From Alphaproteobacteria bacterium (GTDB lineage: Bacteria; Pseudomonadota; Alphaproteobacteria; JBCCNR01), in NCBI GenBank assembly GCA_047627635.1, contig JBLHTX010000001.1:1-57216 (forward strand): DNA of 57,216 bases, read 5' to 3'. Numbering within the stretch: position 1 is the stretch's first letter; the number at the start of each line of letters is the position of its first letter. The translations under genes and the position numbers were made by a program. A model generated the notes under the pieces. It made no database searches. It was not told the origin of the DNA and saw nothing but the letters and a program-made list of their open reading frames with translations. Shown piece by piece: positions 1,201 through 48,756 of this stretch.

Positions 1201-1264
1201 TAATATTGTAAAAAAGGCGATAGTCTTTTTTAAATATAACCATATTTTCCTAAAAGATTGATAT

Positions 1265-2020: not shown

Positions 2021-2056
2021 TAAGATAATAATTATATTAAAAATATAGGTGGAATT

Positions 2057-2617: not shown

Positions 2618-2656
2618 GGAAAAAACCTGTCATGAACTCTGTTACGATTTATTTTT

Positions 2657-3370: not shown

Positions 3371-4058
3371 ATTTTCGGATTTACAAAAACGTTCATTATC
3401 CTCTATTGGATTATTAATATTTGCGTATCTTTTTTTTATTGCTAATTTAGCCGTTTCATCTTTGCTGCTTTTGTTCGTATTTTGTATATTGATTTATGAA
3501 TGGCATCTTGCATCAAAGGGGCAAAAAACCTGCTTGGACTATTTGATATTTTTATTTATTACCAGTGGAATGTGTGTGTTTGGGGCTATAAATGCTGGAC
3601 GTTTACTTGGCGACGCTTTTTCTTATATATTTGAAATATCAATGATATGGATTATTGGTTCTGCAATTTTAAGCGATACAGGGGCCTATTTTATAGGACG
3701 TATTTTTGGTGGCATGCATCCATTTCCAAATATTTCTCCAGGGAAGACTATTTCAGGGTATCTTGGTGGTTTAATTATTGGCGGATCAGTGCCACTTTTT
3801 ACGTTTTTAACTTATAAATCTTACATACCCGAATTTAAATATTTGATAAGTTTAATTGTGATTGGTTTACTTCTATCAATTTCTGCCATGGCAGGTGATT
3901 TACTGCAATCTTATTTCAAGCGTAAAAACAAAATTAAAGACACTGGTTCCTTACTTCCGGGGCATGGTGGATTTTTTGATCGTTTTGATGCAATCTTAGC
4001 AACCTCATTAATGGGTTTATTGATTGCATTATGTATAACATTTTTTAATATAGTTTAA
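3324..4058 (+). CDS. cdsA: Phosphatidate cytidylyltransferase
   Basis: 244-aa polytopic membrane protein with SDTGAYFIGRIFG and ISPGKT.SG motifs. The only ATG overlaps uppS by 47 nt, so the true start is uncertain. Confidence 0.88.
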   Translation: MIMLIEKGVSVHLLHKFSDLQKRSLSSIGLLIFAYLFFIANLAVSSLLLLFVFCILIYEWHLASKGQKTCLDYLIFLFITSGMCVFGAINAGRLLGDAFSYIFEISMIWIIGSAILSDTGAYFIGRIFGGMHPFPNISPGKTISGYLGGLIIGGSVPLFTFLTYKSYIPEFKYLISLIVIGLLLSISAMAGDLLQSYFKRKNKIKDTGSLLPGHGGFFDRFDAILATSLMGLLIALCITFFNIV

Positions 4059-4060
4059 TT

Positions 4061-32156: not shown

Positions 32157-32621
32157 ATGGCCTTTGGCTGTCATCTTATTCAGCATCAAGAGTGTATTAA
32201 TAGCGCAATGCGTAATGCCGAAATGATTTGCCAAGAAAAAAACATTAAGCTTACAAAACTTCGTAAAAGTGTTTTGGAGCTTATATGGACAGGGCACACA
32301 CCGCAAAAAGCCTATGATTTATTGACAAGATTTCAAAAAGAAGATCCTGCTGCTAAGCCTGCAACAATCTATCGTACGCTTGATTTTTTACAAGAAAATG
32401 GATTGGTGCATCGTATTAATCGCCTAAATGCCTATATTGGGTGCGTGAATCCTAACCATAAAGAACCTTATTTCTTGATGGTTTGCTTGCATTGTAATAA
32501 TGTTGAAGAGAGTACACATAGTGAATATCGTGATTTTTTTAATAAAATGATTAATCATAGTCAGTTTCAATGCTCTAATAAAGTGTTTGAAATTGAAGGC
32601 ACATGTCAAAATTGTTTATAA
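32157..32621 (+). CDS. zur: Fur-family regulator, Zur-type (zinc uptake regulator)
   Basis: 154 aa. It has an N-terminal C-H..H..C segment, a wHTH (TIYRTLDFLQENGLVHRI) and CxxC pairs (CLHC, CQNC). A Zur-box-controlled COG0523 gene lies 1.5 kb downstream. Confidence 0.82.
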   Translation: MAFGCHLIQHQECINSAMRNAEMICQEKNIKLTKLRKSVLELIWTGHTPQKAYDLLTRFQKEDPAAKPATIYRTLDFLQENGLVHRINRLNAYIGCVNPNHKEPYFLMVCLHCNNVEESTHSEYRDFFNKMINHSQFQCSNKVFEIEGTCQNCL

Positions 32622-32631
32622 AGTATATGTT

Positions 32632-34083
32632 ATGATGAATATCAAATTTAATTTCAACAACAGCTACGTTACATTACCAGAAATATTGTATACATATACT
32701 GATCCGATCAAGGTGAGTAATCCGAAAATAGTTATTGTGAATAAAGATTTAATGCTTGAATTAGGTCTAAATGATTCAGATATGGGTGATAATGAGCTTG
32801 CAAATTTACTTTCGGGCAATGTAATGCCTGAAGGGAGTGATCCCGTTGCCATGGCATATGCAGGGCATCAATTTGGGGGTTTTACCCTTTTAGGTGATGG
32901 TCGTGCACATCTTATTGGAGAGCATATTGCACCAAATAGCAAAAGATATGATGTTCACCTTAAAGGTTCTGGGCGAACACCCTATGCACGCGGCGGTGAT
33001 GGTCGAGCGGCACTTGGCCCCATGTTACGTGAGTATATAATGTCAGAAGCAATGTATGCGCTTGGTATTGCAACTACACGCAGTTTAGCTGTTACAGCAA
33101 CAGGTGAAACAGTCCCAAGAGAAACACCGCTTGCTGGTGCAGTTTTAACACGCATTGCATCGTCACATATTCGGATTGGTACTTTTGAATATGCAGCCCA
33201 TAAGCAAAATCCTGATCTTGTTAAATGCTTGTTGGACTATACAATTCAGCGCCATTATCTTGATGTAAAAAATGCGAATAATCCAGCGATTGCACTTCTT
33301 AAAGGCGTAATTGAAAAACAAACAGACCTTATTACGCATTGGATGCGTGTAGGGTTTATTCATGGCGTTATGAATACCGATAATATGACTTTATCGGGGG
33401 AAACCATTGATTATGGCCCGTGTGCTTTTATGGATGTGTATGATGCTAAAACGGTTTTTAGTTCAATTGATAGAAATGCGCGTTACGCCTATGGTAATCA
33501 GCCCCTTATGGCACAGTGGAATATTGCCCGCTTAGCCGAAAGTCTATTGCCGCTTATTGATCCAAATATAGACAAAGCCATCGAAATTGCCGAAGACATT
33601 GTGAATGGGGTTCAAGATATTTATGCACAAAAATGGCTGAATATGATGCGTGCAAAACTTGGTTTATGTGGAAAAAATCCACAAGATAAACAGCTGATTG
33701 ATGATTTACTTTCGTGGATGACAATAAACCACATAGATTACACAAATTGTTTTCGCAGTTTATCAAGCGACCAAAAACCGCAAGAAAAAGTATATCATTG
33801 CAGAAAATTTAATGACTGGTATCAAAAATGGCAAAATAGACTTGCACTAGAAAAATCAAAGCAAGCTTCAATATCTCTGATGCGTCAAAATAACCCCGCT
33901 ATTATTCCACGCAATCATAATGTTGAAAATGCGCTTGAACAGGCAAATGCAGGCAATATGCAGCCCTTTAATGACTTATTAGCAGCCTTAAAAACGCCCT
34001 ATTGTGAGCATGAAAATATTAAATGCTATCAATCACCCCCACAGCCAAGCGAACGTGTTTTTCAGACCTTTTGCGGGACATAG
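32632..34083 (+). CDS. selO: Protein adenylyltransferase SelO (YdiU/UPF0061)
   Basis: 483 aa from the ATG at 32632, with AYAGHQFGGF..LGDGRA, LKGSGRTPY.R.GDGRA and HGVMNTDNM motifs. It begins 10 nt after the zur stop. Confidence 0.93.
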   Translation: MMNIKFNFNNSYVTLPEILYTYTDPIKVSNPKIVIVNKDLMLELGLNDSDMGDNELANLLSGNVMPEGSDPVAMAYAGHQFGGFTLLGDGRAHLIGEHIAPNSKRYDVHLKGSGRTPYARGGDGRAALGPMLREYIMSEAMYALGIATTRSLAVTATGETVPRETPLAGAVLTRIASSHIRIGTFEYAAHKQNPDLVKCLLDYTIQRHYLDVKNANNPAIALLKGVIEKQTDLITHWMRVGFIHGVMNTDNMTLSGETIDYGPCAFMDVYDAKTVFSSIDRNARYAYGNQPLMAQWNIARLAESLLPLIDPNIDKAIEIAEDIVNGVQDIYAQKWLNMMRAKLGLCGKNPQDKQLIDDLLSWMTINHIDYTNCFRSLSSDQKPQEKVYHCRKFNDWYQKWQNRLALEKSKQASISLMRQNNPAIIPRNHNVENALEQANAGNMQPFNDLLAALKTPYCEHENIKCYQSPPQPSERVFQTFCGT

Positions 34084-34188: not shown

Positions 34189-35415
34189 ATGAATAACGAG
34201 ATGATAAAAAAACTTCCAGTAACAGTATTATCGGGTTTTTTAGGTGCAGGAAAAACCACACTTTTGAATAATATTTTAAACAACCGTGAAGGCAAAAAAG
34301 TTGCTGTTATCGTAAATGATATGAGTGAAGTGAATATTGATGCAAGCCTTGTGCGTGATGGGGGGGCTAATTTATCACGTACTGAGGAGACACTTGTTGA
34401 GATGAGTAATGGGTGTATTTGCTGTACGCTGCGTGAAGATTTACTTAAGGAAGTGCGTGCTTTGGCTGAGGCAGAGAAATATGATTATTTATTAATTGAA
34501 TCAACAGGTATTTCAGAGCCAATGCCCGTTGCGGCAACATTCGATTTTCGGGATGAAAATGATGAAAGCCTCTCAGATGTTGCTCATCTTGATACAATGG
34601 TCACTGTTGTCGATAGTGCAAGCTTGCTTAATGATTATAGCTCAACTGATTTTCTAAGGGATCGCGGCGAGTCTATGGGAGAGCAAGATGAGCGCACACT
34701 TGTCGATTTATTAGTTGATCAAATGGAGTTTGCCGATGTCATTGTCGTTAATAAATGCGATATGGTTGATGATGCGCAAAAAGATATTGTTACAAAAATT
34801 ATTAAAGCACAAAATCCAGATGCAAAAATAATTTATACAGATCATGGTAAAGTGCCCCTAGATTCCATAATGGGAACAGGTCTATTTAACTATGAAAAAG
34901 CCCAATCAATGGCAGGTTGGTATCAGGCACTGATAGGAGAGCATACCCCAGAAACCGAAGAATATGGTATTTCAAGCTTTGTGTATCGGTCTAAAAAACC
35001 GTTTCATCCTGAGCGTTTTCATGCTTTTACAAATCTTTCTCATGCTGGTGTTATTCGTTCCAAAGGCTTTTTTTGGCTTGCCAGTCGTATGCATTGGGTG
35101 GGTGAAATTGCAATTGCAGGATCAATATTACGTCATCAAGCAGCAGGGAAATGGTGGGCGAATATCCCCAAAGAAAATTGGCCTCAAGATTCTGTTTGGA
35201 AAGATATGCTACAAGAAATTTGGAATCCGCCTTATGGTGATCGTCGCCAAGAAATTGTTTTTATTGGCACGGATATGAACGAAACAGCCCTTAAAAAGCA
35301 ACTTGATTCATGTTTGCTGACGGATAAAGAAATGAAAAAAGGGCATGAAAAATGGGCAAAACTTAAAGACCCATTCCCTGTCTGGAGCATGGAACAATTC
35401 GAGAAAGCAGCATAA
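34189..35415 (+). CDS. COG0523-family G3E GTPase (CobW/ZigA/YeiR-like zinc metallochaperone)
   Basis: 408 aa with the P-loop [12 protein letters not shown], the metal motif [15 protein letters not shown] and NKCD. Confidence 0.92.
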
Positions 35416-36051
35416 ATGTTAAAACAATGTACGCATTTAAGCGACTTAAAGGATTTCCCAGATAATATTGCTTTATCTATCTGTGATCGGCACCCTATTG
35501 CTAATATACAGGCATTTTTTGATGTGCTTATGCAAATTGATTTCTCGATATCTGGTCTTGTATCAAAAGATAATACCATTCAAGATATTGAAGACATTAT
35601 ATCTGAGTATATTCCAAATAATTTAAAGGGAAGCAATTCTTATAAACAATGGATACAGGATATGGCAAATATTTGCCATATCTTTTGCGATATACAAAAA
35701 TCAGAGCACATTAGTTTTTGGCTTGGGACAAAACGAGGCTGCAAACGGTATCATCTTGATTATGTACCAATGCGTCTTTTGGTCACTTATGCTGGAGCTG
35801 GCACACAGTGGATACCGCACGAAGCATCTGACTGGAATGCCTATGCCAATGGCGGCACAAATGACGTAATTTGTAAGGATATCAATAAAATAGAGACGAT
35901 TAAACCGTGGGATGTTGCAATTTTTAGAGGTAGAGAAAAAGGCGTATTACATCGAACGCCTGATGATGCAATGAATAATCCTTCTATTTTTATGCGTTTA
36001 GATATTGCTGCATTTCAAAAGAAGCTGCTTAAAATGAATGCTGCTGGATGA
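35416..36051 (+). CDS. DUF1826-like protein (a frequent partner of Zur-regulated COG0523 genes)
   Basis: 211 aa. The ATG follows the COG0523 TAA stop with no spacer. The motifs YHLDYVPMRLLVTYAGAGTQW and GVLHRTP match my recollection of the family. I could not verify this by search. Confidence 0.6.
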   Translation: MLKQCTHLSDLKDFPDNIALSICDRHPIANIQAFFDVLMQIDFSISGLVSKDNTIQDIEDIISEYIPNNLKGSNSYKQWIQDMANICHIFCDIQKSEHISFWLGTKRGCKRYHLDYVPMRLLVTYAGAGTQWIPHEASDWNAYANGGTNDVICKDINKIETIKPWDVAIFRGREKGVLHRTPDDAMNNPSIFMRLDIAAFQKKLLKMNAAG

Positions 36052-39804: not shown

Positions 39805-41049
39805 ATGCGAATTGCAATCATCGGTAGTGGTATTTCAGGGCTTGGTGCGGCTTATTATTTAGGCAAAAAACATGAAACAGTGCTGTATGAAGCCAATGAT
39901 TATTTGGGTGGACATACACGCACTAAAACGATTCTTTATGACACTGAGTCAATGTCGGTCGATACTGGGTTTATTGTGTATAATGAAAAAAACTATCCGC
40001 ATTTAACGGCTTTGTTTAAAACATTGGGCGTTGTTACTAACAAAAGCGATATGTCATTTGGCACATCGGTCAATGATGGTGAATTTGAGTGGTCGGGTCG
40101 AAATTTACTGGGTGTTTTTGCACAAAAGTCGAATTTCTTTAAGCCTTGGTTCTATCGTATGTTGGCAGATATTAAGAAATTTAACGATCATGGCACACAA
40201 TCAGTCACCAATATTCAGCATAATCAGCTTAGTCTAGGGAGTTTTCTTGATGGCTTGAATTTGTCTGATGCATTTATGAATTATTATTTATTGCCAATGG
40301 CTGGGGCAATCTGGAGCTGTCCCCCTCAAAAAATGCGAGAATTTCCAGCAAAATCATTTCTAACTTTTTTCCATAATCACGGTCTGCTAACAATAACGCA
40401 ACAACCCCAATGGTACACGGTACAAGGCGGTGCAAAAAATTATGTTGAGAAAATTGTCGAGGCAACCCAAAATTGTGAAGTCCGATTAAATGCACCTGTG
40501 AAAAATGTGATAAGAAGCGGTGAGACCGTGTTTTTAATCGATGCATTGGGCAATCGTGAAGCTTTTGACAAGGTCGTGTTTGCGTGCCACGGTGATACAA
40601 CTTTTAAAATGCTTGAAAATCCTGATCCCCAAGAGATTGATGCCCTTAAGTCAATACAGTTTCAACCCAATAAAGTTGTGTTGCATCGTGATATATCGCA
40701 AATGCCAAAACGCAAAGCAGCATGGGCATCCTGGGTTTATCAGTCGGACACAAGCAAAACCGAGCATGATATTGCTGTGACATATCACATGAATAGATTG
40801 CAAACCACATTGCCGCAAAATAAACCTTTATTTGTAACGCTTAACCCGATTAAAGATATTCCCGATCATTTAATTTTTGACCAAGTAACCCTTGATCATC
40901 CGATTTTTACTGCGGATACTTTGGCATCACAAAATAAAATTGCTGTGTTACAAGGTCATAAAAATTGCTATTATGCTGGTGCATGGACAGGATATGGATT
41001 CCATGAGGATGGCTTGCGGTCAGCGATTAATGTTGCAAATTTATTATGA
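39805..41049 (+). CDS. FAD/NAD(P)-binding amine-oxidase-like oxidoreductase (COG2907-like)
   Basis: 414 aa with the dinucleotide motif IAIIGSGISGLGAAYYL followed by EA.DYLGGHT. Confidence 0.85.
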   Translation: MRIAIIGSGISGLGAAYYLGKKHETVLYEANDYLGGHTRTKTILYDTESMSVDTGFIVYNEKNYPHLTALFKTLGVVTNKSDMSFGTSVNDGEFEWSGRNLLGVFAQKSNFFKPWFYRMLADIKKFNDHGTQSVTNIQHNQLSLGSFLDGLNLSDAFMNYYLLPMAGAIWSCPPQKMREFPAKSFLTFFHNHGLLTITQQPQWYTVQGGAKNYVEKIVEATQNCEVRLNAPVKNVIRSGETVFLIDALGNREAFDKVVFACHGDTTFKMLENPDPQEIDALKSIQFQPNKVVLHRDISQMPKRKAAWASWVYQSDTSKTEHDIAVTYHMNRLQTTLPQNKPLFVTLNPIKDIPDHLIFDQVTLDHPIFTADTLASQNKIAVLQGHKNCYYAGAWTGYGFHEDGLRSAINVANLL

Positions 41050-42681
41050 TACTTTGGCTTTTTTAGATTTTTTCTTTTCTTTTTTCTCTTGCTTGCGACC
41101 ATCACGACGAGATTGAATGGTGAAATCACGATAATCTTGCAGATCGCCATCAAAATGTTCGCACTTACCATCACGCACAAGCCAAAGACGATCGGCAACA
41201 CGTTCCACCATATTCGGATCATGACTAACGATAACAATTGCACCCTCGTAATTATTCAGGGCATGAACCAAAGCTTCACGAGCATCAATGTCTAAATGGT
41301 TTGTTGGCTCATCAAGCAGTAATAAATGCGGTGCATCGAAACTCATAAAGGCAAATAATAAACGCGCTTTTTCGCCACCACTAAGGGATTTAATCGTATT
41401 ATCGGAAAGGGTTCGAGGGAAACCGAACGCCCCTAATTTGGCACGCACATTTGATTCTTTAATATCTGGATAGGTCTTACCCATCAAGGACATCATTTCT
41501 TGGAAGGGCGTGGATTCCACATCAAGCTCTTCGGTTTGATGCTGTGAGAAATAGCCAATTCTTAATTTTGTTGACCGAAATACTTCACCATTTAAGGGCT
41601 CAAGCTTATCGGCAATCAATTTCATAAGCGTCGATTTACCGTTCCCATTGGCACCAAGCAAAGCAATACGATCATCGTTACCGATACTTTCATAGACTTT
41701 GTTCAAAATCGGCTCACCTTGGGCATAGCCAATATCAGCATTCGAGATTGTCATCATAGGTGATGCGATTTCTTTGGGGCTAGGAAAAGTAAAATGAATT
41801 GCACGATCGGCAATAACGGCATCAACAATATTCATTCTTTCAAGCGCCTTCACACGACTTTGTGCTTGACTGGCCTTAGAGGCTTGGGCTTTGAAGCGAT
41901 CAACAAATTTTTGCATATGTGCACGTTCGGCACTTTGTTTTTCAAACATTTTTTGCTGTAAACCCATTGCCTCGGCACGTTCACGCTCGAACGTGTCATA
42001 GTTTCCTGTATAGACTTTAAGTTTTTGACGATCCACATGAACCACATGGTCAATACATTTATTCAGCACTTCCCGATCATGGGAAATAATCAGCAAAGTA
42101 TGGGGATAATTAATCAAATAAGTCTCAAGCCACATAATGGCTTCAAGGTCTAAATGGTTTGTTGGCTCATCAAGGAGCAAAATTTCAGGTTCAACAAACA
42201 ACGCCGCCGCCAAGGCAACGCGCATCCGCCACCCCCCACTAAAGGATGAGAAAGGCTCGCTTAATTGGGATTCCTTAAAGCCAAGCCCTGTTAAAAGCTG
42301 TGATGCTTTTGCTGGTGCTGAATAGGCATCAATCTCATCAAGGCGCTCATAAATTTCGGCAATTTTATTTGGATCTTCTTCGCTTACGGTGCGTTTCCAA
42401 AGTTCGGCCATCTCTTCATTGGCTTCAAGTACAAGATCAAGTAAACAGGTATCTGTTTCTGGAATGTCTTGCCTAACCATGCCCATGCGTTGTGATTTGG
42501 AAAATGAAATTTTGCCGCCATCAGGTTTTAAATCGCCTGAAATTAGCTTGAACAAGGTTGATTTTCCAGCACCGTTCAGCCCAACGATACCCACACGCCA
42601 ATTATCCATAATGCTTACGGAGCAATCATCGAGGATTGTGCGTCCTCCAATTTTATAGGTTAGGTCTGATATCGTAAGCAT
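41044..42681 (-). CDS. ABC-F family ATPase (soluble tandem NBDs, translation-factor class)
   Basis: 545 aa with two Walker A motifs (GLNGAGKST, GANGNGKST) and two signatures (FSGGWRMR, LSGGEKAR). It has no TM domain and a Lys-rich C-terminal tail. Its stop region overlaps the convergent 39805-41049 gene by 6 nt. Confidence 0.93.
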   Translation of the reverse strand: MLTISDLTYKIGGRTILDDCSVSIMDNWRVGIVGLNGAGKSTLFKLISGDLKPDGGKISFSKSQRMGMVRQDIPETDTCLLDLVLEANEEMAELWKRTVSEEDPNKIAEIYERLDEIDAYSAPAKASQLLTGLGFKESQLSEPFSSFSGGWRMRVALAAALFVEPEILLLDEPTNHLDLEAIMWLETYLINYPHTLLIISHDREVLNKCIDHVVHVDRQKLKVYTGNYDTFERERAEAMGLQQKMFEKQSAERAHMQKFVDRFKAQASKASQAQSRVKALERMNIVDAVIADRAIHFTFPSPKEIASPMMTISNADIGYAQGEPILNKVYESIGNDDRIALLGANGNGKSTLMKLIADKLEPLNGEVFRSTKLRIGYFSQHQTEELDVESTPFQEMMSLMGKTYPDIKESNVRAKLGAFGFPRTLSDNTIKSLSGGEKARLLFAFMSFDAPHLLLLDEPTNHLDIDAREALVHALNNYEGAIVIVSHDPNMVERVADRLWLVRDGKCEHFDGDLQDYRDFTIQSRRDGRKQEKKEKKKSKKAKVS

Positions 42682-42832
42682 TATTCATATTCCTTATAAC
42701 TTGTCTGCACCTTATGACATATATCATGCGGCAATGGAAGTGCTGAAAATAAGAAAATAGTGATAAAATTCTATCTTTTTGCAGGCAAATACTATAATAG
42801 ATAGCTTGTTTTGCATTAAGGAAAAAAATAAT

Positions 42833-44491
42833 ATGATTGGGAACCTTAATAAATTTGATTTATTGCGTGAAATAAAACGTATTTTCTTTATTTTAATCGG
42901 TAGCGATAGAAAATTCATCTGGGTCGCGGTTTTTTATGGCTTCAGTATTAGCTTGCTCACTTTGGCTGTGCCTGTTTGCGTGCAAGTCCTCATTAACTCG
43001 GTGGCCTATACGGCATCACGTGAAGCCGTTATTATTTTATCAGGTCTGTTATTGGCATTGTTGTTATGTTCAGGGTTTTTAGTTGCAGTGCAATCTTACA
43101 TTCTTGAGCTATTTGAACGGCGGGTTTATGCCCGTTTATCCTCTGAAATCACCTTGTTAAATATACTCACCGATCATCAATATTCTGAAAATACTGATAA
43201 ATCGGATTTAACGAATCGTTATTTCGATATTATGACTGTGCAAAAAAATGTACCTAGTTTGATTGTTGGGCTTTTTGCGTTTTTCTTGCAAACTATTGTT
43301 GGTATTTTGGTTGTGTCTTCTTATCATTCATTTTTATTGCTTTTTAATGCCTGCTTTGTTGCCCTTGTTATTTTAATTTGGCGCGTATGGGGCTATGATG
43401 CCTTGTTTGCTGCGGTTAAAACATCGGATGCAAAATATAAGACTGCACAACATCTAGAGAATATCGCCCGTGACCATGATTATTTTTCATCACACTCCCA
43501 TAGTCAATATGCAACCGAAAAGACCGATAATTTAGTAGAAAAATATTTAAAATATCGCAAAGTTTATTTTGGCTTAACATTCAGACAGCAAATTTCATTC
43601 CTAGCACTTTATGCATTCTCAAGTGCTGGATTGCTTGGGATCGGTGGCATGATTGTGATTGACGGTCAAATTACGCTTGGGCAGCTTGTATCTGCTGAGC
43701 TTATTTTGTCAGCGATTTTTTATGGGGCTATTCAATTAAATTATAGTCTCACCAGTTTTTATGAATTAGGGGCGGCACTCGAGGAAATATATCGGATTTA
43801 TCAAATGCCGTTTGAAAAAAGTGAGGGGCAACTTCCTGCTCCGACTGAAGCATTTGATGTTCAATTTTATAATGCAAAATTTTTTGACGACAATGAAGCG
43901 CCACTTTATTTTAATTTTACCATTCAAGCGGGACACAAAGTTATTGTGACCTGTGCAACGCATAAAATACAACAATCAATTATGCAAACAATCATGCGTT
44001 ATCAAGATGTTCAATCGGGACGCATTTTATTGGGGGGGCAAGATATTCGGGATATTAATCCGCGTAAATTGCGTGATGTGATTGTTATTTTGGATAAAAT
44101 AACAGTATTTAACGCAACAATTCGTGAATATTTAACGCTGAATAAAAATGATATTAAATCTAGCGATATTTATAACGTGCTTGAAATTGTTGGTTTAAAT
44201 CTAGTGATTGATAAATTGGATCACGGCATTGATGCCAGTATGTCAGTGGGCGGCTATCCATTTTCACCATCAGAGGTTTTACAGCTCAAGCTTGCATCTA
44301 TTTTACTGCTTAAACCCAAGGCTATTATTTTAAATCAGCTTTTTGATATTGTACCAGTTAACGTACAGCGCCATATTTTTTCACGACTCAAAGAAATTGA
44401 TACTTTGACAATTATTTATTTTTCTAATCGTGACCATAACAATACCGCTGATATTTTTGATGAATATCTTTATATTAACGGAGAGCAATAA
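42833..44491 (+). CDS. Type-I-secretion-family ABC exporter homologue (six-TM domain plus NBD-like domain) with all ATPase motifs degenerate
   Basis: 552 aa from the ATG at 42833, with AAGGA 10 nt upstream. The ORF track starts at a TTG at 42779. The TMD resembles PrtD/HlyB (LLTLAVPVCVQVLINSV). In the NBD, Walker A reads TCATHKIQQ (43949-43975), the signature reads FSPSE (44258-44272) and Walker B reads AIILNQ (44321-44338). There is no GK[ST], LSGG or hhhhDE motif anywhere in the protein. Confidence 0.85.
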   Translation: MIGNLNKFDLLREIKRIFFILIGSDRKFIWVAVFYGFSISLLTLAVPVCVQVLINSVAYTASREAVIILSGLLLALLLCSGFLVAVQSYILELFERRVYARLSSEITLLNILTDHQYSENTDKSDLTNRYFDIMTVQKNVPSLIVGLFAFFLQTIVGILVVSSYHSFLLLFNACFVALVILIWRVWGYDALFAAVKTSDAKYKTAQHLENIARDHDYFSSHSHSQYATEKTDNLVEKYLKYRKVYFGLTFRQQISFLALYAFSSAGLLGIGGMIVIDGQITLGQLVSAELILSAIFYGAIQLNYSLTSFYELGAALEEIYRIYQMPFEKSEGQLPAPTEAFDVQFYNAKFFDDNEAPLYFNFTIQAGHKVIVTCATHKIQQSIMQTIMRYQDVQSGRILLGGQDIRDINPRKLRDVIVILDKITVFNATIREYLTLNKNDIKSSDIYNVLEIVGLNLVIDKLDHGIDASMSVGGYPFSPSEVLQLKLASILLLKPKAIILNQLFDIVPVNVQRHIFSRLKEIDTLTIIYFSNRDHNNTADIFDEYLYINGEQ

Positions 44492-44493
44492 TT

Positions 44494-45555
44494 ATGGCCC
44501 AAGAACCAAAACCATTATCTTCAGAATATAAATTTAAATCTTATAACACCATTAAAGTGCCGCGTATTATTTGGCATATTACCTTTATCCTTATTTTTAT
44601 CACAGTGTTTTCAATTTTTATGTTAACAGTTACGCCCTGGATTCAAACAGCTTTTGGTAATGGTGTTGTCACCGCAATTGACCCAAGTGAGCGGGTGCAA
44701 AATGTGACTGCCCAAGTTAAAGGACGAATTAAAAATTGGTACGTCTATGAGGGTGATATCGTTAAAGCAGGCGAGCCACTTGTTGAAATTGTTGATAATG
44801 ACATGAATCTTATTCAGCGTTTAACCGATCAACGTAATGCCTATCAAAGCAGTTATAATGCCATAAGGGCGGCCACGCAAACAGCACGCCTTAATTATCA
44901 ACGACAACAAAAATTATATACCGATGGCTTGTCTTCCAAGCTTGATGTTGAAAAATCAAAAATTGACTATGAAAAATATATTTCTGAACAGCAAAAATCA
45001 CAAGTCATGCTTCAACAATCAGAAACCAAGCTATCACAGCAATCTGCCCAAATTATTACTGCACCCCGTGATGGTATGATTGTTAAAATTACGGCAGGGA
45101 ATTTAGCAACTTCGGTCAAGGTTGGCGATATATTAGCCACATTAGTGCCCTCTAATATCGAGCCTGCTGTTGCCCTTTATATGCACGGCATCGATATTGC
45201 GTTAATTTATGCAGGGCGTAAAGTACGCTTGCAGTTTGAAGGGTGGCCCAGCGTTCAGTTTAGCGGTTGGCCAAGTACGGCAATTGGTACATTTGGCGGC
45301 GTTGTGGCGTCAGTCGATCCAATGGTATCTATGAATGGGCGGTTTCGGATTCTTGTTAAGCCCGATCCAGACGATAAGCCATGGCCTAAAAACCGCTATT
45401 TACATTATGGTGCAAGGGTCAAAGGGTATGTATTGCTTGAGAAAGTCAAATTGGCCTATGAGTTTTGGCGACAATTAAATGCATTTCCGCCCGAGTATGT
45501 TGCAAACCCAAAAGCAGATGATGGGATTAGAAAAAGTAAAAAATTTAAAAAATAA
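44494..45555 (+). CDS. HlyD-family membrane fusion (periplasmic adaptor) protein
   Basis: 353 aa with an N-terminal TM anchor, a lipoyl-like hairpin (V.AQVKGRI..W.V.EGD.VKAGEPLVEI), a coiled-coil region and a beta-barrel domain. It begins 2 nt after the ABC gene. Confidence 0.9.
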   Translation: MAQEPKPLSSEYKFKSYNTIKVPRIIWHITFILIFITVFSIFMLTVTPWIQTAFGNGVVTAIDPSERVQNVTAQVKGRIKNWYVYEGDIVKAGEPLVEIVDNDMNLIQRLTDQRNAYQSSYNAIRAATQTARLNYQRQQKLYTDGLSSKLDVEKSKIDYEKYISEQQKSQVMLQQSETKLSQQSAQIITAPRDGMIVKITAGNLATSVKVGDILATLVPSNIEPAVALYMHGIDIALIYAGRKVRLQFEGWPSVQFSGWPSTAIGTFGGVVASVDPMVSMNGRFRILVKPDPDDKPWPKNRYLHYGARVKGYVLLEKVKLAYEFWRQLNAFPPEYVANPKADDGIRKSKKFKK

Positions 45556-45564
45556 GAGAAAATA

Positions 45565-46983
45565 ATGCGATTGAAATATCTTAAAGTCATTTTCACCTTG
45601 ACGATTACTTTAAGTCTTGCACCCTTGAAATTGGCTTATGCTGATGTCTTAAAGCCTGAAGCAATTATCAAAAGTAGTGCGCGTTTTTACCCCGATATTT
45701 TGGCAAGCTATCAATCCATCAAGGCAACACGCACTTATGTAGATGCCGCGCGGGGGAAGTTTGACACAAATATTACCCAAGAAGCCTATGCCCGCCCAGA
45801 TGGATTCTATGATGGGACTTATTTAAAAAGTGAAATTGAGCAGCCAATCCCTGAATTTAATTCCAAAATTTACACAGGATATCGGCTTGCCGATGGTATT
45901 TTTCCGATTTATGAAAACGAGCTTGAAACCGATAATCGGGGCGAATATTATATTGGTGTTAAATTGTCATTATTGCGTGATCGCTTGGTTGATAAAAACC
46001 GAACGGCCATCAGTGTGGCCGAACTGAATGTGCTTGAGCGTGAAACTCAGCTTATTCTTGAAAAACTAACCATTCAACGTAATGCATTGCAAAAATATTG
46101 GTCTTGGTTGACGGCAGGGCACCAGTATTTTGTCTATCAAGATTTATTGGAATTGGCACAAATTCGGCAAAAAAACCTAACCCGTCAAGTCGAGCTTGGA
46201 CAGCTTGCGGCAATTTACCTCCAAGAAAACCAGCAATATTTACTCAAACGCAAAGCCGAGGTAAACATTGCACAGGCAAACTTAAAAATGCTGGCCCAAG
46301 AATTATCACTTTATTATCGTGATTTAAACGGCAATCCTAAAGCCCCCTCATTGGCAATGCTCCCTAAAAAAATGCCAAAATTATCACAATATATTGCGGC
46401 CAATAATGTGTTTAATAATTTACTTGAACATCCTGCTTTTAAAATATTAGACACACAGAAAAAAATATTATTACAAAAAAAGGCCCTAGCCGAAAACGAT
46501 CTATTGCCCTATATCGACCTTGGCGTAAAAGCATCCTCTGATTTTGGCGGCGGCACCAAGCAATATAATGAAGGCGAATTAACCGTTAATTTGAACTTCA
46601 AAGTACCGCTTCAAAGAACAATCGCCAAGTCTAAAAAATCATATGCCGAGGCAAAATTACAAGAATTGATTTATAAAGAAAAAATCCAATTCGATAAACT
46701 GCGTATGGCACTTAATAAATTACTGATTAATATGGATAATCAACAACAATTCTTAAAAATCACCAAGCAAGAAGTCTTATTGGCCAAAAAAATGTCACAG
46801 GTCGAAGAGAAACGATTTGAAGCGGGGATCAGTGACTTTTTTACCTTGAATAAACGTGAAGAAGATATGATGAAAGTCCGTTTACAACGGCTTAAAGCCC
46901 AAGAAAATTACCTGAAAATGCAAGAAGAAATGAAGCTATTAACTGCTAATCTTGCCACGCCTTTCGAGGTTGCTTATGATTAA
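45565..46983 (+). CDS. TolC-like outer membrane efflux protein (OEP family)
   Basis: 472 aa with signal peptide ..LKLAYA|D and two OEP-like repeat halves carrying long helical heptad segments. It begins 9 nt after the HlyD-like gene. Confidence 0.87.
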   Translation: MRLKYLKVIFTLTITLSLAPLKLAYADVLKPEAIIKSSARFYPDILASYQSIKATRTYVDAARGKFDTNITQEAYARPDGFYDGTYLKSEIEQPIPEFNSKIYTGYRLADGIFPIYENELETDNRGEYYIGVKLSLLRDRLVDKNRTAISVAELNVLERETQLILEKLTIQRNALQKYWSWLTAGHQYFVYQDLLELAQIRQKNLTRQVELGQLAAIYLQENQQYLLKRKAEVNIAQANLKMLAQELSLYYRDLNGNPKAPSLAMLPKKMPKLSQYIAANNVFNNLLEHPAFKILDTQKKILLQKKALAENDLLPYIDLGVKASSDFGGGTKQYNEGELTVNLNFKVPLQRTIAKSKKSYAEAKLQELIYKEKIQFDKLRMALNKLLINMDNQQQFLKITKQEVLLAKKMSQVEEKRFEAGISDFFTLNKREEDMMKVRLQRLKAQENYLKMQEEMKLLTANLATPFEVAYD

Positions 46984-48551
46984 TAGCTTTCACTGACCGA
47001 TTTTTTAACGCTCATTTGTGTGCAAAAATGACGTAAGACCGAAAATTCAGAAGGGTAATTATCAATCACCTCAAGGCTCATATTCAGATATTGATAAAGC
47101 TCTATGGCACGGGTAATTTTCATGGTAATGGGTCTTTGAGATGGCTTTTGAGGTGCCATGGTTAAAACAAATGTTTCTTCCATATCAATGCTATTAATAA
47201 GATGCTCAAATTCGCAGGTAAAATTCTCATTCGCTAAATCAACAGGCTTTTTTGCGGCATTATCATTATCATTAGTATTAGTATTATTATTCAGATTCGT
47301 ATTGGTGTTTTTATTATTAAGAGGTTGATTTGTATTTTTTTCTGTCGGATTTTGATTATTATCACCCATAATTCTATCGGCATCAGAAGGAAGATTAGAG
47401 GGATTAATACCTGCATTGCCTGCATTGCCTGTATTGTTAAGCGGTGTTGGAATAATGCCAATATCCTTATCTTGTGCACTGCTAAGGGTAGAAATTTCAA
47501 AAAAACGAGCGGGTAATGAGAGTTTTTTACCAATTAATGTATCAATATCATCGGCTTTATCTGTTAATGGGGGAGGGGATTGCATCGATATGTTATCTTG
47601 AATATTCTCTTCAATAACCGCTGAAGGATTAAAATCATTCGTTATGGGAGGGGCTTGCATTGTGTCAATATCGGGCAGTGTTTCTTCGGGGATATTAGCT
47701 GAGTCATATCTTTGTTGAATGGATTCTGTCAAAGTATCATTTGGGATCAACATATCCTTTGACTCTACATCAGGATTGCTTGATGGTGTGCCTATTGGTT
47801 TATTCTGTATTCCATCATCACTTTCTGGATCAAGGAGTAAAAATTTCTGGGGTGTTTCTTGCGTGTTTTTCGCGTCATCCAAAGCATCAACCATTGGCGT
47901 GTCTTTAAGTAGCTTACTAGATGGCGGACTCTCGATACTATCGGGCAGCATACTCAGGAATTTATCAAGCGCTTTTTCTGGATCTTCTTTTGAAATTACA
48001 GGTGTTTCATCTTCTGCTAAATCATCTATTGTATCTTCTTCTGGTGGTGAAATTAGGAATGGACTTTTCTCTTCATTGGCAACAACACCTTGATTTTCTA
48101 AGGCATCATTTTCAGCATCTGAAACAGGGGATTGATTATCAGTGATTACATCTTTTGTATCGCTATCGGCAATATCTACTTCTTTGGGAGGGGAAATTGG
48201 CGGTAAAGTATCAATAAACGCATCAAGCGCATCTTCTTCTTTATCGTCACTTTTGTCGATCTCGTTTTTTTTGATATTGCTAATAATATTTGCCGCTTTT
48301 TGTACGTCTTTTTCATCCGTATTTAATTTCTTTTGAGGGGATGCATTCGTGTTTTCTTTGCCATTACTATTCCCATTACTATTCCCATTACTATTCAAGG
48401 TCTTTGGAGCAACCGAAGCCGATGGAGATGTATTGCTTGCCCACTGATTTACCTTGTCATAATTGAAAAAATACATAATAACTAAGGCAAAAAATATACC
48501 GAAAAGAACCGCCATAATCGTGTATAATATTTGATTTATTATCTGTTTCAT
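46980..48551 (-). CDS. Membrane-anchored, highly acidic, Asn/Asp/Pro/Ser-rich low-complexity protein, hypothetical
   Basis: 523 aa from the ATG at 48551 (the ORF track starts at 48590). It has one N-terminal TM helix (ILYTIMAVLFGIFFALVIMYFF), about 400 aa of low-complexity acidic sequence and a non-repetitive C-terminal domain of about 90 aa. Confidence 0.65.
   Translation of the reverse strand: MKQIINQILYTIMAVLFGIFFALVIMYFFNYDKVNQWASNTSPSASVAPKTLNSNGNSNGNSNGKENTNASPQKKLNTDEKDVQKAANIISNIKKNEIDKSDDKEEDALDAFIDTLPPISPPKEVDIADSDTKDVITDNQSPVSDAENDALENQGVVANEEKSPFLISPPEEDTIDDLAEDETPVISKEDPEKALDKFLSMLPDSIESPPSSKLLKDTPMVDALDDAKNTQETPQKFLLLDPESDDGIQNKPIGTPSSNPDVESKDMLIPNDTLTESIQQRYDSANIPEETLPDIDTMQAPPITNDFNPSAVIEENIQDNISMQSPPPLTDKADDIDTLIGKKLSLPARFFEISTLSSAQDKDIGIIPTPLNNTGNAGNAGINPSNLPSDADRIMGDNNQNPTEKNTNQPLNNKNTNTNLNNNTNTNDNDNAAKKPVDLANENFTCEFEHLINSIDMEETFVLTMAPQKPSQRPITMKITRAIELYQYLNMSLEVIDNYPSEFSVLRHFCTQMSVKKSVSESY
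47410..47436. repeat. 9-bp in-frame tandem repeat x3 (cctgcattg), encoding GNAGNAG-type residues
   Basis: Read directly. The third copy has one substitution. Confidence 0.9.
48361..48396. repeat. 12-bp in-frame tandem repeat x3 (ccattactattc), encoding (NSNG)3
   Basis: Three perfect copies, read directly. Confidence 0.95.
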
Positions 48552-48756
48552 AGGGTTTATGATAGCTTGAATTAAACAACAAGTCAACATTATTTTAATA
48601 TATATATTTTATATTAAAATTATTAAATTAAGCAGGCATATTATATTCATTGACGTAACAGGGCAAACGCTTTAGGAATGGTTACGGGCCATATCCCCCC
48701 AACGGGATAAGACCTATCAATTGTATTAAACAATATAGCAAGATAGGAATACAAAA

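What the first reader, a model, noticed from the sequence alone, without database searches (positions are those of the whole stretch)
42833..46983. Type-I-secretion-like ABC/HlyD/TolC operon whose ABC component has lost every ATPase motif
Seen in the sequence: three co-directional genes separated by 2 and 9 nt. They encode a PrtD/HlyB-like exporter (six TM helices plus a C-terminal NBD-sized domain), a HlyD-family adaptor and a TolC-like outer-membrane protein. The NBD-like domain is collinear with ABC ATPases, but every catalytic element is replaced:
- Walker A GxxGxGK[ST] becomes TCATHKIQQ (43949-43975).
- The Q-loop Q becomes D (VILDKI).
- The signature LSGGQ becomes FSPSE (44258-44272).
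- Walker B hhhhDE becomes AIILNQ (44321-44338).
- The H-loop His is absent (IYFSNRD).

No second ABC gene is in the operon. The divergent neighbour (41044-42681) is a soluble ABC-F protein, not a transporter subunit.

Established knowledge: T1SS ABC proteins act as homodimers and need ATP binding and hydrolysis.

Inference: a 552-codon intact ORF with a well-formed TM domain argues against simple decay. The system may be a non-canonical or passive tripartite conduit. It may be energised by an unlinked ABC half-transporter acting as an extreme asymmetric heterodimer. Or it may have been repurposed as a scaffold. No RTX-type (GGxGxD) cargo gene is present in the window.
Basis: partly seen in the sequence, partly recalled or inferred. 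Interest (0 to 1): 0.7.

Follow-up and report, generated by a model that had tools for sequence, protein, structure and literature searches.

The report
Secretion-type ABC pump without ATPase motifs
A three-gene, envelope-spanning export system has an inner-membrane "ABC transporter" that keeps the full ABC fold but has lost every ATP-binding motif; relatives occur in at least 561 species genomes, so this is a conserved machine that probably works without the usual ATP motor, not a broken gene.

Summary

- **Fold kept, motifs lost.** The 552-aa protein models as a full type IV ABC exporter (pLDDT 89; TM-score 0.87-0.90 to HlyB, TM287/288, TmrAB, MsbA). Its NBD-like domain lacks Walker A, Q-loop Gln, LSGGQ, Walker B Asp-Glu and H-loop His.
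- **Not decay.** All 118 full-length relatives (down to about 32% identity) lack the same motifs. Relatives occur in at least 561 species genomes. The cassette is kept while flanks differ, and dN/dS is 0.06-0.15.
- **No partner or cargo.** No linked canonical ABC partner or cargo gene is conserved.
- **Origin.** A sister family (about 735 aa, Planctomycetota-type) sits in the same cassette with orthologous adaptor and OMF. It keeps the P-loop, but 44% of members lack the catalytic Glu.
- **Relaxed cytoplasmic half.** In the P-loop-less clade the cytoplasmic coupling regions are relaxed, while the periplasm-side membrane core stays constrained.

Best reading: a functional tripartite conduit derived from type I secretion or bacteriocin exporters, with a pseudo-NBD, not driven by ATP at its own NBDs. 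Energy source and substrate are unknown. I found no description in the literature. I rate it a new variant of a known kind.

The parts
42833..44491 (+). Gene for the 552-aa ABC-exporter-fold protein with a pseudo-NBD (inner-membrane component)
   Evidence: ORF. Pfam ABC_membrane 6e-10; ABC_tran sub-threshold at 15.7 bits. AF2 pLDDT 89.2. Foldseek TM-score 0.87-0.90 to TM287/288, TmrAB, HlyB 8dck_A and MsbA. An identical protein, P0001, is found in 4 other metagenome contigs.
42833..43807 (+). Transmembrane domain (residues 1-325; six long TM helices of the type IV ABC exporter fold)
   Evidence: Helices 7-60, 63-112, 130-162, 166-213, 221-276 and 282-323 in the model. This is the most conserved part of the protein. 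Family and sister-family signatures are NRYFDIMTVQK (128-138), SYH (163-165) and GQ(L/I)TLGQLV(A/S)AELILS (277-293).
43325..43327 (+). Codon for invariant His165 (periplasmic turn between TM3 and TM4)
   Evidence: Invariant in 118/118 family members and 116/120 sister sequences. The topological placement is inferred from the model's helix boundaries.
43697..43699 (+). Codon for invariant Glu289 (periplasm-side half of TM6)
   Evidence: Invariant in 118/118 family members. Glu in 110/120 and Gln in 10/120 sister sequences.
43850..44488 (+). Pseudo-NBD (residues 340-552): folds like an ABC nucleotide-binding domain but lacks all nucleotide-binding and catalytic motifs
   Evidence: phmmer still detects canonical ABCB NBDs at about 1e-20 and 22-27% identity. 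pLDDT is about 90. dN/dS is 0.12-0.33. The retained positions G396, L413-R414, G465, G474-P476-L477, L485-A488, P495 and D505 are mostly fold positions that canonical NBDs also keep (my reading of the alignments); P476 and D505 are specific to this superfamily.
43949..43975 (+). Walker A-equivalent segment TCATHKIQQ (no Gly; the Lys position is Gln380)
   Evidence: Translation. Alignment to GxxGxGKST of solved exporters and of the sister family. None of 120 family sequences contains GxxxxGK[ST]. In the model the helix starts at H377, leaving a 2-residue loop.
44093..44095 (+). Q-loop-equivalent codon (Asp421 in place of Gln)
   Evidence: Alignment. The family consensus is VLDRPT.
44261..44275 (+). 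Signature-equivalent FSPSE (in place of LSGGQ)
   Evidence: The family consensus is (W/Y)PLSxSE.
44321..44338 (+). Walker B-equivalent AIILNQ (Asn501-Gln502 in place of Asp-Glu)
   Evidence: The family consensus is LVLNQLFD.
44426..44428 (+). H-loop-equivalent codon (Asn532 in place of His)
   Evidence: Family consensus YFSNR. Position checked.
44494..45555 (+). Gene for the 353-aa periplasmic adaptor (membrane fusion protein): N-terminal TM anchor, lipoyl domain, alpha-hairpin, beta-barrel, no membrane-proximal domain in my reading of the model
   Evidence: Pfam HlyD_3 1.2e-11 and Biotin_lipoyl_2 2e-8. AF2 pLDDT 91 with TM helix 24-46 and hairpin 106-183. Foldseek hits to MacA, ZneB, AcrA and EmrA. 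About 47% identity across 105 homologues, with motifs RLQFEGWPxVQFSGWP and YELWRQLNxFPP.
45565..46983 (+). Gene for the 472-aa TolC-like outer-membrane factor
   Evidence: Pfam OEP 3.9e-26, two stretches. An N-terminal signal-like sequence without a lipobox Cys can be read from the sequence. 31% identical (E 1e-51) to the OMF of the sister cassette.

Best explanation
**What it is (shown).** This is a member of a large, conserved three-gene cassette: an ABC-exporter-fold protein, a periplasmic adaptor and a TolC-like OMF. It descends from the type I secretion / bacteriocin-exporter branch of ABC systems. In this proteobacteria-centred clade the N-terminal accessory domain is absent. The nucleotide-binding domain has become a pseudo-NBD: it keeps the fold and is under purifying selection, but has no P-loop, Q-loop Gln, LSGGQ, Walker B Asp-Glu or H-loop His.

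**How it most likely works (inferred).**
- The protein still forms a homodimeric inner-membrane portal that docks the adaptor and the OMF into a trans-envelope duct.
- Its own NBDs can neither bind nor hydrolyse ATP.
- They probably serve as a permanent dimerisation or stabilising module. A conserved Asp505 sits just after the Walker B strand, close to where canonical NBDs carry the D-loop.
- The working part is the strongly conserved periplasm-side half of the TMD (ends of TM1, TM3/4, TM5 and TM6, with invariant His165 and Glu289) together with the adaptor.
- Export of a still unknown substrate, not encoded next to the cassette, would then be driven by the substrate's own gradient or by the proton-motive force, not by an ATP power stroke.

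**Evolutionary path (inferred).** The sister family keeps the P-loop, but 44% of its members have replaced the catalytic Glu by Gly. This suggests a stepwise retreat from ATP hydrolysis in the superfamily.
For: **Motif loss is family-wide.**
- 0 of 120 homologues have GxxxxGK[ST] or xSGGx.
- The replacing segments are themselves semi-conserved.

**The fold is retained.**
- AF2 pLDDT is 89.2.
- TM-score is 0.87-0.90 to solved ABC exporters, including HlyB.

**The genes are under selection.**
- dN/dS is 0.06-0.15 for the whole gene and 0.12-0.33 for the pseudo-NBD.
- Length and frame are kept in 118 sequences down to about 32% identity.

**The cassette is a unit.**
- The adaptor is present in 70 and the OMF in 71 of 79 non-redundant loci.
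- At least 561 GTDB species genomes carry a relative.
- Flanking genes differ even at 78% and 67% identity.
- Gene junctions are gaps of up to 9 nt or 1-4 nt overlaps in most loci read; the adaptor-OMF gap is 31 nt in L089 and 281 nt in L090.

**No partner.**
- Only 3 of 79 loci have a canonical ABC exporter within 10 kb. The two compared by BLAST (L046, L068) are only 22-25% identical to the family.
- The window's only ABC ATPase is an ABC-F protein.

**Origin.**
- A TMD-only NJ tree gives the P-loop-less clade 199/200, the sister clade 200/200, and both together against other ABC exporters 200/200.
- The sister cassette has an orthologous adaptor (35% identity, 8e-78) and OMF (31% identity, 1e-51).
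- Sister NBD: Walker A 118/120, Walker B Asp 120/120, catalytic Glu 66/120 against Gly 53/120.

**The cytoplasmic coupling apparatus is relaxed.** Entropy excess over the sister family is +1.14 bits in the ICL1 coupling region, +1.07 in the cytoplasmic end of TM6 and +1.88 at Walker A. It is only -0.07 to +0.20 in the periplasm-side TM1, TM5 and TM6.
Against: - No experiment and no multimer model supports homodimerisation, ATP independence or any energy source.
- The invariant His165 and Glu289 are shared with the P-loop-bearing sister family. They are therefore not an adaptation that replaced ATP, and may concern substrate or adaptor rather than protons.
- The entropy comparison uses two differently sampled sets. 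The P-loop-less sample is more divergent overall: 1.91 against 1.31 bits.
- Whole genomes could not be scanned for an unlinked partner.
- No substrate or phenotype is known.
- A gradient-driven duct through TolC would need gating, and I have no evidence for any.
Confidence: 0.55

Rival explanations
1. Extreme asymmetric heterodimer. The P-loop-less protein pairs with a canonical ABC half-transporter encoded elsewhere in the genome, which supplies ATP binding and hydrolysis.
For: Heterodimeric ABC exporters with one degenerate site exist, and TM287/288 and TmrAB are the best structural matches. Whole genomes could not be searched, so an unlinked partner is not excluded.
Against: - Partners of heterodimeric exporters are, from general knowledge, normally adjacent. 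Here 76 of 79 loci have no canonical ABC exporter within 10 kb. The exceptions include an ABC exporter in L046 that I read as Atm1-like from its sequence, and other general exporters; the two compared by BLAST (L046, L068) are only 22-25% identical to the family.
- The cassette moves as a three-gene unit between unrelated contexts and onto plasmids.
- A half lacking both Walker A and signature could complete at most one ATP site, and that site would carry a non-canonical signature (PLSxSE). No known heterodimer lacks a P-loop in one half (established knowledge, not tested here).
Confidence: 0.1
2. Assembly scaffold only. The protein no longer transports anything itself. It is kept because it nucleates or anchors the adaptor hexamer and OMF, which then act as a periplasm-to-outside exit duct or serve another inner-membrane transporter.
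For: - Constraint is concentrated on the periplasm-side half of the TMD, where adaptors dock, while the cytoplasmic coupling regions are relaxed.
- The adaptor is more conserved than the ABC-like protein: about 47% against about 38% identity over comparable sets.
Against: - The pseudo-NBD and the cytoplasmic helices are still under purifying selection (dN/dS 0.12-0.33) and keep their full length in all lineages. That is not expected if only a periplasmic docking surface were needed.
- TM-core residues typical of a translocation path (TM1, TM5, TM6) are the most conserved.
Confidence: 0.17
3. Non-canonical nucleotide or other ligand binding. The altered NBD still binds ATP, or another ligand such as a signalling nucleotide, through new residues, and so remains an energising or regulatory domain.
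For: - The segments replacing the motifs are not random. Examples are xxH(G/K)(I/V)Q(R/K)L at Walker A, VLDRPT at the Q-loop, (W/Y)PLSxSE, LVLNQLFD and YFSNR.
- Some pseudokinases and pseudo-GTPases still bind nucleotides (general knowledge).
Against: - The Walker A-equivalent region is the least conserved block of the domain: entropy 2.82 bits, and only Gln380 reaches 58%.
- No glycine-rich loop remains, and the model shortens the loop to 2 residues.
- The A-loop region is unconserved.
- The best-conserved NBD residues are mostly fold positions that canonical NBDs also keep (my reading of the alignments).
Confidence: 0.08
4. Decaying pseudogene or assembly artefact in this metagenome-derived genome.
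For: The source is a metagenome-assembled alphaproteobacterial genome.
Against: - An identical protein lies on at least 4 independently assembled contigs.
- Intact orthologues occur in isolates: Paraglaciecola, Alteromonas, Parvularcula, Erythrobacter and Novosphingobium aromaticivorans DSM 12444.
- dN/dS is well below 1.
- The AF2 model is high-confidence.
Confidence: 0.01

Closest known systems
Type I secretion systems (HlyB-HlyD-TolC, PrtDEF, LssBD)
   Same: - Same three-component operon logic: a type IV ABC-exporter-fold inner-membrane protein, a TM-anchored adaptor in which I see no membrane-proximal domain, and a TolC-type OMF.
- The best NCBIfam hits are LssB, HlyB and PrtD.
- TM-score is 0.89 to ATP-bound HlyB, 8dck_A.
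   Different: - All ATPase motifs are absent, and scores are about 85 bits against family cut-offs of 510-725.
- There is no C39 or C39-like N-terminal domain.
- The adaptor is short (353 aa, hairpin helices of about 35-38 residues) and scores better against the RND/MacA-type MFP model than the HlyD model.
- No RTX or other cargo gene is linked.
Planctomycetota-type 'peptidase domain-containing ABC transporter' cassette (P0341, P0389, P0405, P0421; uncharacterised)
   Same: - It is the true sister group in a TMD-only tree.
- It shares the TMD signatures NRFFD..TVQK, FYHP and LTLGQLVAAEL, the Pro before the signature Leu-Ser, and the LD after Walker B.
- At least one member (P0389, locus L093) sits in the same cassette, with an orthologous adaptor and OMF.
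   Different: - The sister keeps Walker A (118/120) and the Walker B Asp (120/120).
- It has an N-terminal domain of about 190 aa and an adaptor about 100 aa longer.
- 44% of its members lack the catalytic Glu, and nearly all lack the Q-loop Gln.
- No literature was found on it either.
Heterodimeric ABC exporters with one degenerate ATP site (TM287/288, TmrAB, TAP1/2)
   Same: These are the best structural matches. They are the established precedent for tolerated loss of catalytic residues in an ABC exporter NBD.
   Different: In those systems both halves keep a P-loop and bind ATP, one consensus site still hydrolyses, and the two genes are adjacent (general knowledge). Here a single gene lacks every motif, so a homodimer would have no ATP site at all.
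SbmA/BacA peptide transporters (recalled from memory, not tested here)
   Same: They are a precedent for a transporter related to ABC-exporter membrane domains that works without an NBD and is driven by the proton gradient.
   Different: SbmA/BacA have no NBD-like domain, are importers, and are not part of an adaptor-OMF tripartite system. No sequence comparison was made here.
HlyD/Peptidase_M50/SecA_DEAD modules (Kamneva et al. 2015, PMC4452313)
   Same: They are T1SS-related gene modules (HlyD-domain proteins, sometimes an OEP) that lack a functional ABC ATPase. The authors raise the same question of what forms the pore and what supplies energy.
   Different: Their inner-membrane candidate is an M50-like protein and a SecA_DEAD ATPase is linked. 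No ABC-fold protein is present. The family is unrelated to the one in this window.
Tripartite pumps with non-ABC inner-membrane components (EmrAB-TolC, AcrAB-TolC)
   Same: The adaptor fold matches EmrA, AcrA and MacA. They show that adaptor-OMF ducts can be run by the proton-motive force instead of ATP (general knowledge).
   Different: Their inner-membrane proteins are MFS or RND transporters with known proton relays. Here the inner-membrane protein has the ABC exporter fold, and no proton relay has been demonstrated.

Membership tests
ABC (ATP-binding cassette) ATPase superfamily | Walker A P-loop GxxGxGK(S/T) | tested here: not met
   TCATHKIQQ at the aligned position. 0 of 120 homologues contain GxxxxGK[ST].
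ABC (ATP-binding cassette) ATPase superfamily | Signature (C-loop) LSGGQ | tested here: not met
   FSPSE at the aligned position; only Ser478 is retained, with Phe at the Leu position (Leu in most of the family). The family consensus is PLSxSE.
ABC (ATP-binding cassette) ATPase superfamily | Walker B hhhhD followed by the catalytic Glu; H-loop His; Q-loop Gln | tested here: not met
   AIILNQ, N532 and D421. Pfam ABC_tran scores 15.7 bits, below the gathering score of 25.
ABC (ATP-binding cassette) ATPase superfamily | NBD fold (RecA-like core plus helical subdomain), homologous to ABC NBDs | tested here: met
   phmmer with the domain alone finds canonical ABCB NBDs at about 1e-20. The full-length Foldseek alignment covers 541-557 columns of solved exporters.
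Type IV (type I exporter) ABC transmembrane domain | Six long TM helices with intracellular coupling loops; Pfam ABC_membrane | tested here: met
   PF00664 at 39.7 bits, above the gathering score of 28. Helix pattern in the model. TM-score 0.87-0.90.
Type I secretion system | ABC protein, membrane fusion protein and OMF acting together (co-operonic here) | tested here: met
   The three-gene order is conserved in 70-71 of 79 loci.
Type I secretion system | ATP hydrolysis by the ABC component energises secretion | tested here: not met
   All catalytic motifs are absent (see above). Biochemical activity itself is not testable with these tools.
Type I secretion system | Dedicated protein or peptide cargo (RTX or C-terminal signal, or double-glycine leader), usually linked | tested here: not met
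   No RTX repeats occur in the window. No neighbour is conserved apart from a LysR-type regulator in 19 of 79 loci. An unlinked cargo cannot be excluded.
Periplasmic adaptor (membrane fusion) proteins | Lipoyl domain split by an alpha-helical hairpin, plus a beta-barrel domain; membrane anchor | tested here: met
   Pfam HlyD_3 and Biotin_lipoyl_2. Model secondary structure. Foldseek hits to MacA, ZneB, AcrA and EmrA at E 1e-13 to 1e-16.
Outer membrane factor (TolC/OEP) | Two OEP repeats | tested here: met
   PF02321 at 3.9e-26, two stretches. There is no close solved relative by sequence. Trimeric assembly is not testable here.
Pseudoenzyme (pseudo-ATPase domain) | Homologous fold retained, catalytic and binding residues lost, purifying selection maintained | tested here: met

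The most novel reading that the evidence does not exclude
This is the first recognised ABC-exporter-fold homodimer that operates with no nucleotide at all. It is the inner-membrane core of a widespread tripartite exporter whose transport is driven by the proton-motive force or the substrate gradient. Together with its sister family it preserves an evolutionary series: canonical ATPase, then P-loop kept but catalytic base lost (44% of sister members), then every ATP motif lost. The series would show how a primary active transporter turns into an ATP-independent one.
Probability: 0.4. Interest if true: 0.85.

Novelty: new variant of a known kind. Interest (0 to 1): 0.7.

Why it matters
ABC exporters and type I secretion systems are textbook ATP-driven machines. 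Known 'degenerate' cases always keep at least one working ATP site.

This family has zero predicted ATP sites, yet it is conserved with its adaptor and TolC partner in hundreds of species. These include culturable, genetically tractable bacteria such as Novosphingobium aromaticivorans DSM 12444, Alteromonas, Paraglaciecola and Erythrobacter.

That makes two questions directly testable:
- Can the ABC exporter fold cycle, or serve as a gated portal, without nucleotide?
- What then energises a trans-envelope duct?

There is also a practical point. These genes are routinely annotated 'ABC transporter ATP-binding protein'. That is almost certainly wrong and inflates counts of ATP-driven exporters in marine and soil genomes.

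Tried and rejected
1. **Displaced canonical motifs.** A regex search for GxxxxGK[ST] and xSGGx anywhere in 120 homologues found none.
2. **Linked partner ABC gene.** ORF clustering of 79 loci with 10-kb flanks found canonical ABC exporters in only 3 loci. The other motif-positive ORFs checked were UvrA (two loci) or the window's ABC-F; two short ones were not checked. The adjacent exporter in L046 is only about 24% identical to the family, and I read it as Atm1-like from its sequence.
3. **Linked cargo or functional neighbours.**
   - The only recurrent neighbour is a divergent LysR-type regulator (which I read as NhaR-like) in 19 of 79 loci.
   - A Pyr_redox/VTT protein in 11 loci looks like lineage synteny, judged from the example loci.
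   - The cobW/DUF1826 and amino-oxidase/SelO co-occurrences occur in about 2 loci each and were not pursued.
4. **Family size from an NBD-only search.** phmmer against 1.84 billion representatives was not clean, because canonical ABCB NBDs also score about 1e-20. It did reveal P0341 and thereby the sister family.
5. **N-terminal domain of the sister family.** It has no Pfam hit and no significant PDB sequence hit (best E 0.33), so a C39-like origin is unconfirmed.
6. **Promoter and terminator scan.** Counts equal the shuffled expectation and are uninformative.
7. **Literature.** Seven full-text searches and two papers read found no description of this family. PMC4452313 concerns a different HlyD/M50/SecA_DEAD module.
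8. **Tree building.** A Biopython NJ bootstrap timed out, and a Kimura-distance version gave NaNs. It was redone with Poisson distances.
9. **Dimer or complex modelling.** This was not possible with the single-chain structure tool.

Full report
**1. The observation**

The window carries three co-directional ORFs:
- 42833-44491 (552 aa from the ATG; a TTG at 42779 would add 18 codons);
- 44494-45555 (353 aa);
- 45565-46983 (472 aa).

The gaps are 2 and 9 nt. The ATG start is supported by homologues that begin MIGNLNKF and by an AAGGA 12 nt upstream.

Pfam assigns ABC_membrane to the first protein (6e-10, above the gathering score). ABC_tran reaches only 15.7 bits, below the cut-off of 25. The second protein gets HlyD_3 and Biotin_lipoyl_2, and the third gets OEP (3.9e-26). 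NCBIfam gives full-length collinear but very weak hits to the type I secretion permease/ATPase models LssB, HlyB and PrtD, and to NHLP bacteriocin exporters (E about 1e-24, about 85 bits against cut-offs of 510-850).

HMMER alignments to solved ABC exporters, and later an alignment to a P-loop-bearing sister family, fix the motif positions.

| Canonical element | In this protein | Coordinates |
|---|---|---|
| Walker A xGxxGxGK(S/T) | TCATHKIQQ (Lys position is Q380) | 43949-43975 |
| Q-loop Gln | D421 | 44093-44095 |
| Signature LSGGQ | FSPSE | 44261-44275 |
| Walker B hhhhDE | AIILNQ | 44321-44338 |
| H-loop His | N532 | 44426-44428 |

The divergent neighbour is an ABC-F protein (3e-161). 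It is the only ORF with ABC ATPase motifs in the 57 kb. No RTX repeats are present.

**2. Fold**

An AlphaFold2 model built on 118 homologues has mean pLDDT 89.2 and pTM 0.79. It shows six long helices (7-60, 63-112, 130-162, 166-213, 221-276, 282-323) followed by an alpha/beta domain.

Foldseek against the PDB aligns about 540-555 columns to complete ABC exporters, with query-normalised TM-scores of 0.87-0.90. The matches include TM287/288, TmrAB, ATP-bound HlyB (8dck_A), MsbA and PCAT1.

The C-terminal domain alone still finds canonical ABCB-type NBDs at about 1e-20 and 22-27% identity. It is therefore a true NBD homologue.

In the model the strand ending at C374 is followed by a two-residue loop, and the helix already starts at H377. 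The phosphate-binding loop appears collapsed. This is model-based evidence only.

**3. A conserved family, not decay**

- The protein search returned 269 relatives. The identical protein comes from an alphaproteobacterial MAG and occurs on several independently assembled contigs.
- In a MAFFT alignment of 118 full-length relatives (about 32-78% identity), none has a Walker A, an LSGGQ, a Walker B Asp-Glu pair or an H-loop His.
- The replacing segments are loosely conserved: xxH(G/K)(I/V)Q(R/K)L, VLDRPT, (W/Y)PLSxSE, LVLNQLFD and YFSNR.
- A pattern scan of one genome per GTDB species found at least 561 genomes encoding a relative. These include Sphingomonadales, Alteromonadaceae, Kordiimonas, Parvularcula, Woeseiaceae, Pseudohongiella and some Myxococcota.
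- Copies also lie on Sphingomonadaceae megaplasmids, including pNL2 of Novosphingobium aromaticivorans DSM 12444 (SARO_RS19820-19810), and on Bacteroidota plasmids.
- Nei-Gojobori dN/dS against the 78% and 67% identical orthologues is 0.06 and 0.15 for the gene. For the pseudo-NBD alone it is 0.12 and 0.33. dS is near saturation, so these are if anything overestimates.

**4. The cassette is the unit; no partner, no cargo**

I called ORFs in 79 non-redundant loci with 10-kb flanks and clustered them.
- The roughly 350-aa adaptor follows in 70 loci and the roughly 470-aa OMF in 71. Most of the others are probably truncated contigs, which I did not check.
- Gene junctions are small gaps or 1-4 nt overlaps in most loci read. 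The adaptor-OMF junction is looser in L089 (31 nt) and L090 (281 nt).
- Flanking genes are unrelated even in the closest relatives.
- The only recurrent neighbour is a divergent LysR-type regulator, which I read as NhaR-like, in 19 of 79 loci.
- A canonical ABC exporter lies within 10 kb in only 3 of 79 loci. The two compared by BLAST (L046, L068) are only 22-25% identical to the family.

This argues against a dedicated heterodimer partner. It also shows that any cargo is unlinked.

**5. Origin**

One weak hit of the NBD search, P0341 (735 aa), carries the family's TMD signatures but has a canonical P-loop. It represents a large sister family (3672 hits at 1e-10 or better). The named members are from Planctomycetota, and NCBI names some of them 'peptidase domain-containing ABC transporter'.

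At least one member of this family (P0389, locus L093) sits in the same three-gene cassette. That adaptor is 35% identical to the window's (E 8e-78), with the same RLQFEGWP..SGWP and YE.WRQLN.FPP motifs and about 100 extra hairpin residues. Its OMF is 31% identical (E 1e-51).

A neighbour-joining tree of the TMD only gives these bootstrap values:
- the P-loop-less clade, 199/200;
- the sister clade, 200/200;
- the two together against other ABC exporters, 200/200.

Within this sampling, the loss therefore looks like a single old event followed by long retention.

The sister NBD is itself unusual:
- Walker A in 118/120 and Walker B Asp in 120/120;
- catalytic Glu in only 66/120, with Gly in 53/120;
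- Q-loop Gln in 6/120.

The superfamily thus shows a graded retreat from canonical catalysis.

**6. Where selection acts**

In the P-loop-less family the TMD is more conserved than the pseudo-NBD (mean top-residue frequency 0.61 against 0.45).

The invariant residues cluster at the periplasm-side ends of three regions:
- TM1: L44, P47, Q51;
- the TM3/TM4 turn: Y164 and H165;
- TM5-ECL3-TM6: L268, G271, G272, V275, G283, Q284, L285, E289, L290.

Topology is inferred from the model.

Column entropy was compared with the sister family.
- The periplasm-side TM1, TM5 and TM6 segments are equally constrained (differences -0.07 to +0.20 bits).
- The ICL1 coupling region (+1.14), the cytoplasmic end of TM6 (+1.07), Walker A (+1.88) and the NBD as a whole (+0.78) are relaxed.
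- The two samples differ in overall divergence (1.91 against 1.31 bits). Only the contrast between regions is meaningful.

H165 and E289 are also conserved in the sister family. They are ancestral features of the superfamily, not replacements for ATP. Asp505, which lies just after the Walker B strand close to where canonical NBDs carry the D-loop, is conserved in both families.

**7. The partners**

The adaptor model (pLDDT 91) shows these elements:
- a TM helix (24-46);
- a lipoyl domain split by a hairpin (helices 106-143 and 149-183);
- a beta-barrel;
- short C-terminal helices, and no membrane-proximal domain in my reading of the model.

It matches MacA, ZneB, AcrA, MexA and EmrA. It is more conserved than the ABC-like protein (about 47% identity over 105 sequences). 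The OMF has two OEP repeats and an N-terminal signal-like sequence without a lipobox cysteine, which I read from the sequence.

**8. Mechanism**

*Shown:*
- a selectively maintained tripartite cassette;
- an ABC-exporter fold retained;
- every nucleotide-binding element lost;
- cytoplasmic coupling regions relaxed and periplasm-side core constrained;
- no linked ATPase partner.

*Inferred:*
- The protein forms a homodimeric portal for the adaptor-OMF duct.
- Its pseudo-NBDs act as a nucleotide-free dimerisation or stabilising module.
- Export is driven by the substrate gradient or the proton-motive force.

I put about 0.55 on this package. That breaks down as near certainty for 'what it is' and roughly even odds for ATP-independent transport.

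*Rivals:*

| Rival | Confidence |
|---|---|
| Scaffold only | about 0.17 |
| Unlinked canonical partner | about 0.10 |
| Non-canonical ligand binding | about 0.08 |
| Pseudogene or artefact | about 0.01 |

**9. Comparison with what is known, and novelty**

The system works like, and descends from, type I secretion / bacteriocin-type ABC systems. It fails the defining ATPase features of the ABC superfamily and of T1SS energisation, so I do not file it as a T1SS ABC transporter.

Known degenerate ABC exporters (TM287/288, TmrAB, TAP) keep P-loops in both halves and one active site (general knowledge). SbmA/BacA, recalled from memory, show that related membrane domains can run on protons, but they have no NBD and no adaptor or OMF. 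The HlyD/M50/SecA_DEAD modules of PMC4452313 are another ABC-less T1SS-like module but are unrelated.

Seven literature searches found no description of this family or of the N. aromaticivorans genes. The library does not cover most subscription journals, so prior description cannot be excluded.

I rate it a new variant of a known kind, with interest 0.7.

Noticed in passing
window 34189-36051 (+); locus L001 2256-4168: A cobW (COG0523-type) gene followed by a DUF1826 gene lies about 7 kb upstream of the cassette in the window. The same pair lies next to the cassette in Paraglaciecola (L001), within a region that also carries FUR-family, ZrgA, MerC and GCHY-1 (FolE2-type) genes and a TonB-dependent receptor, which I read as Zur-regulon-like. 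The adaptor's best PDB sequence hit is the Zn-efflux adaptor ZneB. This may be a coincidence; only about 2 loci share it.
   Followed up: partly
window 39805-41049 (+) and 32587-34083 (+); locus L088 6228-10693: An Amino_oxidase/NAD_binding_8 gene and a SelO gene lie near the cassette in the window. In a Pelagibacterales contig the same amino-oxidase type directly follows the cassette and continues into DUF1365, a CMAS-type methyltransferase and a Chalcone_3 gene. From memory, that set resembles the bacterial furan-fatty-acid (ufa) cluster.
   Followed up: no
window 46980-48590 (-): A 536-aa ORF runs convergent to the OMF gene and overlaps its end by 4 nt. It has an N-terminal hydrophobic segment and long low-complexity stretches (NSNG repeats, NTN-rich), with no Pfam or NCBIfam match. 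Its called length varies among otherwise near-identical contigs (523, 533 and 536 aa), which suggests repeat-length polymorphism.
   Followed up: no
sister-family proteins P0389-P0507 (e.g. locus L093 8001-10211): In the P-loop-bearing sister family, 53 of 120 members have Gly instead of the catalytic Glu after Walker B (LLLIDG). Only 6 of 120 keep the Q-loop Gln. Many of these annotated 'ABC transporter ATP-binding proteins' may bind but not hydrolyse ATP.
   Followed up: partly
locus L094 (N. aromaticivorans pNL2) 1243-4208: About 3 kb upstream of the cassette on pNL2 there is a separate unit: a MarR regulator, a HlyD-family adaptor and a DHA2-family MFS efflux pump (EmrAB-like). The plasmid therefore carries two different adaptor-based systems side by side, but only one TolC-family gene is annotated in this stretch.
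   Followed up: no
window 41044-41049: The amino-oxidase gene (+, ends 41049) and the ABC-F gene (-, ends 41044) are convergent and overlap by 6 nt.
   Followed up: no
protein P0166: A 559-aa metagenomic protein combines an ABC_membrane Pfam hit with 96% coverage of the adaptor. It may be an ABC-adaptor fusion, or an indel artefact across the very short gene junction.
   Followed up: no
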